Source: a virus (taxonomy: Duplodnaviria; Heunggongvirae; Uroviricota; Caudoviricetes). From it: a stretch of DNA of 13,878 nt. The DNA lies in the IMG/VR virus record IMGVR_UViG_2529293142_000032, positions 1 through 13,878 of that record; one strand, given 5' to 3'. This document shows, piece by piece, positions 3,897 through 4,429 of the stretch. The notes beneath the pieces are model-generated. The model ran no database searches and was not told where the DNA came from. It saw only the letters and a program-made list of their open reading frames with translations. Positions within the stretch are counted from its first letter, which is position 1. Each line of letters opens with the position of its first letter. A program made the translations under genes and the position numbers.

Positions 3897-4220
3897 TTAT
3901 CTTTCACGATAAGCAACACGATACAGCGCATCGTAAATGACACACCTCAGTTCTTCCGCAAACTCAATAATCGACACCTTGCCAGCCAGGCGGTAAAGCC
4001 GTGATGTGTGTTTGTTGAGTTCTTCCATTACTGTATTGTGTATACCGTCGCGCTCGCTGGTCATGCGCTCAATCATGTAATCAGGGGAGATAAACTTACC
4101 TTCGAAATCCCTGCATTCCAGTCGCATCATCTCCGCCGCACAACACTCACGCAGTGCCCTTGATTCCTCCAGTGTACGGTAATGGTCGCTGTCTTCCGTT
4201 GCCTTCCTGACAGCCTGCAT
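3897..4220 (-). CDS. Hypothetical protein (107 aa); probably the C-terminal part of a frameshifted gene continuous with 4241..4429
   Basis: The reading frame stays open upstream of the annotated ATG as far as the G6 run at 4342-4347. See findings. Confidence 0.5.
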   Translation of the reverse strand: MQAVRKATEDSDHYRTLEESRALRECCAAEMMRLECRDFEGKFISPDYMIERMTSERDGIHNTVMEELNKHTSRLYRLAGKVSIIEFAEELRCVIYDALYRVAYRER

Positions 4221-4240
4221 AACCTTTTCTTCACGTGCGT

Positions 4241-4429
4241 TTAATGCTTTGCGGGCGTTGGTTCTTCGCTGGTCGCCATGATCGATGTTTCTGCGCCGCC
4301 AGTCGTCGGCCTCTTTAACGCAGATTTTACCGTCTTTGCGTGGGGGGAAGGTTCGGCCTTAAGCCATTTGTAGACAGTGGTGCGGGTAACGCCTGCATGG
4401 CGGGCATAGTCGGCAATGCTCATCATCAT
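4241..4429 (-). CDS. Phage-type helix-turn-helix DNA-binding protein, N-terminal part (62-aa ORF as assembled)
   Basis: The N-terminus MSIADYARHAGVTRTTVYKWLK is a classic HTH. The ORF ends shortly after a homopolymer, and the neighbouring frame continues into 3897..4220. Confidence 0.55.
   Translation of the reverse strand: MMMSIADYARHAGVTRTTVYKWLKAEPSPHAKTVKSALKRPTTGGAETSIMATSEEPTPAKH

What the first reader, a model, noticed from the sequence alone, without database searches (positions are those of the whole stretch)
3897..4429. HTH gene interrupted at a G6 homopolymer; restoring one base fuses it to the downstream ORF
The 62-aa HTH ORF (MSIADYARHAGVTRTTVYKWLK...) and the 107-aa ORF 3897..4220 lie in adjacent frames. 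The downstream frame is open right back to the C6 run (plus-strand G6 at 4342-4347). One extra C would give a single protein of about 170 aa (...KWLKAEPSPPRKDGKICVKEADDWRRRNIDHGDQRRTNARKALNAREEKVMQAVRK...). The architecture, an HTH followed by a basic and helical region, resembles small phage DNA-binding or packaging proteins. This is the second homopolymer minus-one event in the window, which suggests either systematic sequencing error or decay of a cryptic element.
Basis: seen in the sequence. Interest (0 to 1): 0.5.

Follow-up and report, generated by a model that had tools for sequence, protein, structure and literature searches.

The report
Frameshifted small-terminase-like gene in phage satellite

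Summary
The two ORFs (62 aa at 4241..4429 and 107 aa at 3897..4220, minus strand) and the C6/G6 run at 4342-4347 are present as described. They are the two halves of one gene. More than 20 related loci carry a single 534-nt, 177-codon CDS, and a protein identical to the repaired window sequence is on record on 74 contigs.

The missing base is not in the C6 run, because every intact relative also has C6. The window has lost one A from GAA-ACC (codons 26/27). That site is T2 at 4352-4353 on the plus strand, where relatives have T3.

The deletion is real and not an assembly error. The exact 62-aa and 107-aa products occur on about 65 contigs. Two independent draft assemblies carry this deletion but lack the window's four other one-base deletions. 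Those four lie in T6-T8 runs and look mostly like assembly errors.

The intact protein has an N-terminal winged helix-turn-helix domain and a helical C-terminal region. It is related to lambda-Nu1-type small terminases and sits in a ~15-kb satellite island of PICI (phage-inducible chromosomal island) type, with integrase, excisionase-like HTH, D5 primase, SSB, ProQ and PerC. It probably redirects helper-phage DNA packaging, but that function is inferred.

A different island lineage carries an independent C6-to-C7 frameshift in the same gene.

Verdict: an ordinary pseudogene of a known kind, of low interest.

The parts
3897..4429 (-). Frameshifted gene (pseudogene) for a 177-aa small-terminase-like wHTH protein. 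It is intact as a 534-nt CDS in relatives.
   Evidence: Alignment with intact relatives. The repaired translation is identical to P0001. phrog_57 E 1.6e-14.
4352..4353 (-). Site of the lesion: AA on the coding strand (TT on plus), where all intact relatives have AAA (codons E26-T27, GAA ACC).
   Evidence: The same deletion is in independent assemblies L012 and L013.
4342..4347 (-). It is unchanged relative to intact relatives. It is mutated to C7 in a different island lineage (L021-L023).
4241..4429 (-). 62-aa ORF: 26 native residues (helices 1-2 of the wHTH) followed by 36 out-of-frame residues. The wing and helix 3 are lost.
   Evidence: The exact product P0009 is on 65 contigs.
3897..4220 (-). 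107-aa ORF starting at Met71 of the intact protein. It covers the whole helical C-terminal domain.
   Evidence: The exact product P0034 is on 64 contigs.
4426..4806 (-). Upstream gene of 126 aa whose stop overlaps the start of the frameshifted gene (ATGA). It is an HTH-less paralogue of the C-terminal half of the 177-aa protein.
   Evidence: BLASTP: 27% identity over 91 aa, E 2e-5. phrog_57 positions 88-171, E 6.3e-7. It is paired with the 177-aa gene in all related islands examined.
1..1281 (-). IS256-family insertion sequence (Transposase_mut, ORF 1..1209) inserted about 100 bp downstream of the island's distal PerC gene.
   Evidence: Pfam E 9e-120. Homology to IS-free islands (L004, L006, L007) stops at 1282. 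Contigs L011 and L012 run a short way into the IS (to window 1204 and 984) and L013 ends at the junction (1283).
1282..13878 (-). Body of the PICI-like satellite island, in order: 238-aa gene, excisionase-like HTH, Icd-like 394 aa, DUF4222, D5-type primase, SSB, ProQ, PerC, several unknowns, the 126-aa + 177-aa pair, a 94-aa gene, and a second PerC.
   Evidence: Pfam, PHROG and NCBIfam. Gene maps of near-identical loci that have the integrase and sit next to mug-rpoD.

Best explanation
The region is a single gene, inactivated in this lineage by a real one-base deletion.

Shown: the lesion is AAA to AA at codons 26/27 (window 4352-4353), not in the neighbouring C6 run. In the AlphaFold model of the intact protein, the break falls just after the second helix of the winged helix-turn-helix (wHTH). 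The 62-aa product therefore loses the wing and third helix, and the C-terminal domain is left in a separate 107-aa ORF. The mutation is inherited within a clonal E. coli lineage. It arose after an IS256-family element had already inserted at the island's distal end.

Shown: the intact 177-aa protein belongs to the small-terminase family that sits upstream of lambda-GpA-type large terminases. It lies in a ~15-kb integrative island with the gene set of a phage-inducible chromosomal island (PICI). It is preceded by, and overlaps, an HTH-less paralogue of its own C-terminal domain.

Inferred: the intact protein binds a site on the replicated island DNA through its wHTH. Through its helical C-terminal domain it engages a helper phage's terminase. 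It could do this as the satellite's own TerS, or in the manner of Rpp as a partner of the phage TerS. Either way the island rather than the phage would be packaged.

Inferred: in the window's lineage this function is lost, so the island is a decaying, probably non-transducible remnant.
For: One gene:
- Intact 534-nt CDS in L001-L003 and in L004-L011.
- The A-repaired translation is identical to P0001.

Site of the lesion:
- Alignments.

Real and inherited:
- The exact 62-aa and 107-aa products are on 65 and 64 contigs, with several NCBI accessions.
- L012 and L013, plus 22 similar places, carry the split gene.
- The window differs from L012 by 1 substitution and has no gap at 4352-4354. The window's four other T-run deletions are absent from L012 and L013.

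Order of events:
- L004 has no IS and an intact gene.
- L011 has the IS and an intact gene.
- L012, L013 and the window have the IS and the frameshift.

Family:
- phrog_57 'terminase small subunit' E 1.6e-14. All 16 aligned relatives hit phrog_57, the best at 5e-33.
- Distant homologues P0012 and P0013 lie directly upstream of a GpA_ATPase/GpA_nuclease large terminase, a Phage_portal_2 portal and an S49 protease.
- hhalign against lambda Nu1 is colinear over 154 columns, E 3e-4, probability 39%.

Context:
- The island has integrase, an excisionase-type HTH, a D5 primase, SSB, ProQ and PerC, and no structural genes.
- PICIs are described as carrying terS homologues or Rpp (PMC6092414, PMC6739421, PMC10085698).

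Recurrent loss:
- An independent C6-to-C7 frameshift occurs in L021-L023, where a Terminase_2 TerS lies immediately downstream.
Against: - No experiment links this protein to packaging.
- It does not reach Pfam's gathering score for any family (HTH_17: 25.6 bits against 27) and gives no hit to Phage_Nu1.
- There is no sequence hit to RppC or any other PDB chain.
- tblastn finds no homologue in 50,697 phage genomes.
- No lambda-type cosN occurs in the island at up to 2 mismatches, so the packaging site and the helper phage are unknown.
- The N-terminal fold is shared with excisionases, AlpA and MerR regulators.
- One island variant has a separate canonical TerS, so the 177-aa protein need not be the TerS itself.
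- Raw reads of the window's own assembly were not available.
Confidence: 0.8

Rival explanations
1. The frameshift at 4352-4353 is a sequencing or assembly error in the window, part of systematic homopolymer under-calling.
For: Against near-identical loci (2 substitutions in 12.6 kb), the window shows five one-base deletions and no insertions, all in plus-strand T runs. Four of these are in runs of 6-8 nt, which is typical of homopolymer errors. The window's genome is absent from RefSeq complete E. coli genomes; the best hit there is 93.6% identical.
Against: The same deletion is in independent draft assemblies L012 and L013, which lack the other four deletions. The exact 62-aa and 107-aa products are on about 65 contigs under several accessions. 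The run involved is only 3 nt long.
Confidence: 0.04
2. One reading: the gene lost one C from a C7 run (plus-strand G7 to G6 at 4342-4347).
For: Adding a C there also restores a 177-codon ORF. The run is genuinely mutable, since a different lineage has C7 there as a frameshift.
Against: All intact relatives, including loci 99.94% identical to the window, have C6 and AAA. The window has C6 and AA. The C-repaired protein (KAEPSPPRK) was not among the homologues returned, whereas the A-repaired protein is matched exactly by P0001.
Confidence: 0.01
3. The split is tolerated or functional. One possibility is that the 107-aa C-terminal domain is expressed alone, mimicking the HTH-less 126-aa paralogue. 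Another is that tRNA-Pro slippage on the adjacent C-run leakily restores a near full-length protein. A third is that the C-run acts as a phase-variable switch.
For: Two independent frameshifts lie within 10 bp of each other, AAA to AA and C6 to C7. The 107-aa ORF keeps the entire domain that is homologous to the 126-aa paralogue.
Against: Each frameshift allele is confined to one near-clonal island lineage. Runs of 3 and 6-7 nt are short for phase variation. There is no canonical X XXY YYZ heptamer in frame in the window. The Shine-Dalgarno-like AAGG lies only 2 nt from the ATG of the 107-aa ORF. The island also carries an IS insertion, which fits plain decay.
Confidence: 0.07
4. The intact protein is a transcriptional regulator or excisionase-type recombination directionality factor of the island, not a packaging protein.
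For: The N-terminal domain gives sub-threshold hits to HTH_17 and to phrog_66 'excisionase and transcriptional regulator'. Fold matches include RdfS, Xis, BldC and AlpA. The L021-type island has a separate Terminase_2 TerS.
Against: Homology to small terminases runs the full length of the protein, not only the HTH. Distant relatives occupy the Nu1 position next to the large terminase. The island already has an excisionase-family HTH next to its integrase (TIGR01764, E 9e-10). Excisionases are about 50-80 aa, not 177.
Confidence: 0.15

Closest known systems
Lambda gpNu1-type small terminase (TerS that works with a GpA-type large terminase); PHROG family phrog_57
   Different: No hit to Pfam Phage_Nu1. 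No large terminase or any head gene nearby. No lambda cosN in the island. No homologue in 50,697 phage genomes by tblastn. It is encoded in an island and paired with an HTH-less paralogue.
Rpp (RppA/B/C), the 'redirecting phage packaging' proteins of E. coli cos-type PICIs (PMC6739421; PDB 6HLK, 6HN7)
   Different: No detectable sequence similarity to RppC. Longer: 177 aa against 144-153 aa. The whole-chain Foldseek match to 6hlk is insignificant (probability 0.08). The island lacks the lambda-like cosN that Rpp islands carry. The C-terminal domain is TerS-like (phrog_57) rather than the Rpp coiled-coil.
SaPI/PICI-encoded TerS (a satellite small terminase that redirects the helper's large terminase to the satellite pac site)
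   Same: A satellite-encoded small-terminase homologue located after the replication module, as in the PICI gene order described in PMC6092414 and PMC10085698.
   Different: SaPI TerS proteins belong to pac-type families such as Terminase_2. A Terminase_2 gene is a separate gene in the L021 island variant. The present protein is of the Nu1/cos-associated lineage.
Ordinary frameshift pseudogenes in decaying prophages and islands
   Same: A single-base indel fixed in a clonal lineage, accompanied by an IS insertion in the same element.
   Different: Nothing material. The only point of note is a second, independent frameshift 8 nt away in another lineage.

Membership tests
Genuine (inherited) frameshift pseudogene | Orthologues carry one uninterrupted CDS across the two ORFs | tested here: met
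   A 534-nt, 177-aa CDS is found in L001-L011 and a 182-aa version in L024-L027.
Genuine (inherited) frameshift pseudogene | The same lesion is present in independent assemblies | tested here: met
   L012 and L013 plus 22 similar places carry it. The exact products are on 65 and 64 contigs. L012 and L013 lack the window's other four deletions.
Genuine (inherited) frameshift pseudogene | Lesion confirmed in raw reads of the window's own strain | not testable with these tools
   No read data were available.
Small terminase, Nu1/phrog_57 type | Significant profile match over most of the length | tested here: met
   phrog_57 E 1.6e-14 over residues 1-120. All 16 relatives match, the best at 5e-33. 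The paralogue covers profile positions 88-171.
Small terminase, Nu1/phrog_57 type | Match to the curated Pfam Phage_Nu1 model (PF07471) | tested here: not met
   No hit at E <= 0.1 for the protein, nor at <= 0.01 for any of the 16 relatives. hhalign to lambda Nu1 gives only 39% probability.
Small terminase, Nu1/phrog_57 type | N-terminal winged HTH DNA-binding domain of the Nu1 type | tested here: met
Small terminase, Nu1/phrog_57 type | Gene adjacent to a large terminase gene | tested here: not met
   No large terminase is in the island, as expected for a satellite. The feature is met for the distant homologues P0012 and P0013.
Small terminase, Nu1/phrog_57 type | Binds a cos/pac site and the large terminase | not testable with these tools
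   Needs biochemistry.
Rpp (redirecting phage packaging) family | Sequence homology to RppA/B/C | tested here: not met
   Neither phmmer nor a profile search of all PDB chains, which include RppC (6HLK, 6HN7_A), gives a hit at E <= 10.
Rpp (redirecting phage packaging) family | Rpp fold: wHTH plus a C-terminal coiled-coil dimerisation domain | tested here: inconclusive
Rpp (redirecting phage packaging) family | The island carries a helper-type (lambda-like) cosN | tested here: not met
   GGGCGGCGACCT is absent at up to 2 mismatches in the window and in L004. The positive control was found in a CFT073 lambdoid prophage.
Rpp (redirecting phage packaging) family | Binds the helper phage TerS | not testable with these tools
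   Needs a two-hybrid or pull-down assay.
PICI-type phage satellite (the element that carries the gene) | Integrase, AlpA/excisionase-type regulator and primase-replicase in the conserved order | tested here: met
   Arm-DNA-bind_3 + Phage_integrase; a 69-aa HTH_17/TIGR01764 protein; a 605-aa D5_N/DUF5906/Pox_D5 protein.
PICI-type phage satellite (the element that carries the gene) | About 10-15 kb with no capsid, tail or lysis genes | tested here: met
   The island is about 15 kb from the integrase to the mug flank in L004. No structural-gene hit appeared among the proteins scanned.
PICI-type phage satellite (the element that carries the gene) | Induction, replication and packaging by a helper phage | not testable with these tools
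   Needs experiments.

The most novel reading that the evidence does not exclude
The gene may be a recurrent target of frameshifting at or beside a proline-codon C-run: AAA to AA in one lineage, and C6 to C7 eight nucleotides away in another. Such lesions could be leaky, because tRNA-Pro slippage on CCC-C might restore the frame. Alternatively, they could be selected because they uncouple the DNA-binding head from the terminase-interacting C-terminal domain. That would turn a packaging factor into an HTH-less interference protein like its 126-aa neighbour. A broader novel reading concerns the intact gene pair (an HTH-less paralogue plus a Nu1-like protein). It could be an uncharacterised way for E. 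coli satellites to hijack GpA-type terminases without a lambda cosN and without an Rpp homologue.
Probability: 0.08. Interest if true: 0.55.

Novelty: new member of a known kind. Interest (0 to 1): 0.2.

Why it matters
As a finding it is mostly a caution for annotation. A frameshift that sits next to a homopolymer, in a window carrying several homopolymer errors, turned out to be the one real mutation, and it lay in a 3-nt run rather than in the obvious G6 run. Comparison with independent assemblies separates the two classes of indel cleanly.

Biologically, it documents stepwise decay of a PICI-like satellite in one E. coli lineage: first an IS insertion, then loss of the putative packaging-specificity gene. 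It also points to an uncharacterised Nu1-like protein and its HTH-less paralogue as the likely packaging or interference module of a widespread family of E. coli islands that lack Rpp and lack a lambda cosN. That module could be worth testing experimentally, but nothing found here would surprise a specialist.

Tried and rejected
1. Sequencing artefact. I first concluded that the focal frameshift was an artefact, because the window shows 5 T-run deletions against 2 substitutions when compared with L004 and L006. I rejected this after exact look-ups of the truncated products and after comparison with L012 and L013.
2. C-run repair. Rejected from the alignments.
3. Sequence searches of the PDB with the protein and with a 16-sequence profile gave only noise.
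4. Foldseek against the PDB and BFVD gave no significant whole-chain hit. Only the roughly 50-residue wHTH matches.
5. megablast and tblastn against 50,697 phage genomes gave nothing.
6. A genome-contig scan with the site pattern found nothing, and a second scan with the protein gave only unconfirmed pattern matches.
8. I searched for lambda cosN in the island and found none, while the positive control was found.
9. The 540-bp spacer downstream of the gene (3357-3896) has only short, chance-level repeats and a plus-strand terminator-like hairpin at 3842-3858. It is replaced by unrelated sequence in L002 and L003, and no packaging site could be recognised in it.
10. I tried to fetch RppA from CFT073 by reading 100 kb of NC_004431.1. 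I found only a lambdoid prophage and not the island, so I abandoned this.
11. PADLOC and NCBIfam scans of the gene and its neighbours gave nothing relevant, apart from an Icd-like domain in the 394-aa protein.
12. There is no remnant of a Terminase_2 gene in the window.

Full report
**Observation**

On the minus strand the window has a 62-aa ORF at 4241..4429 (MMMSIADYARHAGVTRTTVYKWLKAEPSPHAK...) and a 107-aa ORF at 3897..4220, in adjacent frames. A C6 run (plus-strand G6) lies at 4342-4347. The downstream frame is open back to a TAA at about 4359-4361. A one-base insertion anywhere between that TAA and the stop of the 62-aa ORF therefore fuses the two ORFs into 177 codons.

**Where the base is missing**

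Three complete E. coli genomes hold related DNA at 87-94% identity. Each annotates a single 534-nt CDS here, in one case named 'helix-turn-helix domain-containing protein'. The four-way alignment shows C6 in all sequences. The window instead lacks one A of GCCGAAACC.

The same result holds against loci L004 and L006, which are 99.94% identical to the window over 12.6 kb. The lesion is therefore AAA to AA at codons E26/T27, which is plus-strand T2 at 4352-4353, four nucleotides upstream of the C-run on the coding strand.

The correctly repaired protein reads ...KAETFPPRKDGKICVKE... It is identical over all 177 residues to P0001, the representative of a cluster of 33 member sequences. P0001 itself is seen on 74 contigs and is named from Escherichia marmotae and as 'MULTISPECIES [Escherichia]'.

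**Real mutation or artefact**

Against L004 and L006 the window has only 2 substitutions but five one-base deletions and no insertions, all in plus-strand T runs. They are:
- T3 to T2 at 4352-4353
- T7 to T6 at 6173-6178
- T8 to T7 at 6878-6884
- T6 to T5 at 8323-8327
- T7 to T6 at 13423-13428

That pattern looks like systematic homopolymer under-calling, and I first took the focal frameshift for an artefact. Three further results reversed that view.

- The exhaustive protein search returned a 62-aa protein (P0009) identical to the window's truncated product.
- Exact look-up shows P0009 on 65 contigs and the 107-aa product (P0034) on 64 contigs, under several NCBI accessions and an old UniParc identifier.
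- Two draft assemblies, L012 (GCA_900016135.1) and L013 (GCA_016997615.1), plus 22 similar places, carry the split gene. In those assemblies the SSB gene, the 287-aa gene and (in L012) the 238-aa gene are called at full length.

Direct comparison settles it. The window differs from L012 by one substitution and has no gap at 4352-4354, while the four other T-run deletions remain specific to the window.

So the focal deletion is a real, inherited allele. The other four are private to the window's assembly and are most simply read as errors. They comprise 4 of the 41 runs of six or more nucleotides in this stretch. There is one caveat: the 152-aa truncated product caused by the 13423-13428 deletion is also recorded on 4 contigs.

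**Order of events**

- L004, L006 and L007 have no IS, and the island continues to a KilA-N fragment, mug, rpoD and dnaG.
- L011 has an intact gene, but its contig ends 78 bp inside the same IS256-family element that occupies window 1-1281.
- L012, L013 and the window have both the IS and the frameshift.

The IS insertion therefore came before the frameshift. Both events mark decay of the island in one lineage.

**What the gene encodes**

The repaired protein narrowly misses Pfam's HTH_17 threshold (25.6 bits against 27). It matches PHROG family phrog_57, 'terminase small subunit', over residues 1-120 at E 1.6e-14.

An exhaustive HMMER scan of 1.84 billion cluster representatives finds only 30 relatives. 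Most are 160-195 aa long and align along the whole length. All 16 aligned members hit phrog_57 (best 5e-33), and seven also hit another TerS family, phrog_141.

Two distant homologues, P0012 and P0013, lie directly upstream of a GpA_ATPase/GpA_nuclease large terminase. That gene is followed by a small gpW-sized gene, a Phage_portal_2 portal and an S49 protease. This is the position of Nu1 in lambda-type packaging modules.

A profile comparison with lambda Nu1 gives a colinear alignment of 154 columns at E 3e-4, but only 39% probability. Residues 1-98 of the Nu1 sequence I used were verified against PDB 6HN7_B; the remainder was recalled from memory.

In that model the frameshift falls after residue 26, at the end of the second helix. 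The 62-aa product therefore lacks the wing and helix 3. The 107-aa ORF starts at Met71 and contains the whole C-terminal domain.

**Context**

The gene lies in a ~15-kb island. Its genes, in order, are:
- an integrase (Arm-DNA-bind_3 + Phage_integrase)
- a 238-aa protein
- a 69-aa excisionase-family HTH
- a 394-aa protein with an Icd-like C-terminus
- a 106-aa protein
- DUF4222
- a D5-type primase
- an 81-aa protein
- SSB
- ProQ/FinO
- PerC
- five proteins of unknown function
- the 126-aa + 177-aa pair
- a 540-bp spacer
- a 94-aa protein
- a reverse-strand 123-aa gene
- a second PerC

. Islands with other integrases and other replication proteins, inserted at other chromosomal sites, share the distal module that includes the pair.

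This is the gene order of Gram-negative phage-inducible chromosomal islands, some of which carry a terS homologue or an Rpp protein (PMC6092414, PMC6739421, PMC10085698).

The upstream 126-aa gene overlaps the start of the focal gene (ATGA). It is a paralogue of the focal protein's C-terminal half, residues 87-177 (27% identity over 91 aa, E 2e-5). It matches the C-terminal part of phrog_57.

**Mechanism (inferred)**

The intact protein most likely recognises island DNA through its Nu1-type wHTH. It would engage the helper's terminase through its helical domain and so redirect packaging to the island. It could act as a satellite TerS or in the manner of Rpp. The HTH-less paralogue may co-assemble with it or with the phage TerS.

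Several points limit this inference:
- There is no lambda-type cosN in the island, although the positive control was found in a CFT073 prophage.
- There is no phage homologue by tblastn.
- There is no sequence similarity to RppC.
- The wHTH fold is shared with excisionases and MerR-type regulators.

**A second, independent frameshift**

Protein P0004 (172 aa, at least 22 contigs) begins in another frame. Its DNA reads GCCGAAACATTCCCCCCCACGC, which is C7 instead of C6 plus a C-to-A change.

That island variant (L021-L023) lacks several of the unknown genes. It carries a canonical Terminase_2 small terminase and a type I restriction-modification system immediately downstream. No remnant of that terminase gene is present in the window. 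This would fit replacement of one packaging factor by another, but it is only a correlation.

I see no good evidence for programmed recoding or phase variation. The runs are short, each allele is confined to one lineage, and there is no in-frame slippery heptamer in the window.

**Verdict**

It is a frameshift pseudogene of a satellite packaging-type gene, that is, a new member of a known kind and of low general interest. The uncharacterised Nu1-like protein with its HTH-less paralogue is a modest lead for satellite biology.

Noticed in passing
window 6173-6178, 6878-6884, 8323-8327, 13423-13428: There are four further one-base deletions in plus-strand T runs: T7 to T6, T8 to T7, T6 to T5 and T7 to T6. 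They are measured against L004 and against L012/L013, which share the focal frameshift. They break the 287-aa gene twice, the SSB gene (147 aa reduced to 120 aa) and the 238-aa gene. They are probably assembly errors in the window. However, the 152-aa product of the last one is also recorded on 4 contigs, and the 120-aa SSB product on 1 Logan contig.
   Followed up: partly
window 1-1281: An IS256-family insertion sequence (Transposase_mut, E 9e-120) is inserted about 100 bp beyond the distal PerC gene. The same insertion ends contigs L011, L012 and L013. It predates the frameshift, because L011 has the IS and an intact gene.
   Followed up: partly
L021-L023, around 3080-3100 (the gene is at 3001-3519): An independent frameshift in the same gene occurs in another island lineage. 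The C6 run is C7, there is also a C-to-A change, and it is found on at least 22 contigs. That variant has a Terminase_2 small terminase and a type I restriction-modification system immediately downstream.
   Followed up: yes
window 4426-4806 (minus strand): The overlapping upstream 126-aa gene is an HTH-less paralogue of the C-terminal domain of the 177-aa protein. It matches the C-terminal part of phrog_57. The pair is conserved in all island variants seen.
   Followed up: partly
window 3357-3896: The 540-bp non-coding spacer after the gene is conserved in the window, L001 and L009. It is replaced by unrelated sequence in L002 and L003, starting exactly at the stop codon. It contains a plus-strand terminator-like hairpin at 3842-3858. 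No cos or pac site could be recognised.
   Followed up: partly
window 11617-12801 (minus strand); L004 1626-2810: The 394-aa island protein has no Pfam hit, but its C-terminus matches the NCBIfam 'host cell division inhibitor Icd-like' domain at E 1e-18.
   Followed up: no
window 7362-7676 and 1382-1678 (minus strand): The same island carries two PerC-family transcriptional activator genes (Pfam E 5e-34 and 4e-23), plus a ProQ/FinO-family gene at 7631-8155.
   Followed up: no
window 5147-5165: The palindrome ACCCCCCATGGGGGT lies in the gap after the 84-aa gene. This short stretch is an indel hotspot among island variants.
   Followed up: no
window 7925: A single substitution (A in the window, G in L004, L012 and L013) lies inside the ProQ-family gene. 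It is the only base change that separates the window from L012 over 12.9 kb.
   Followed up: no
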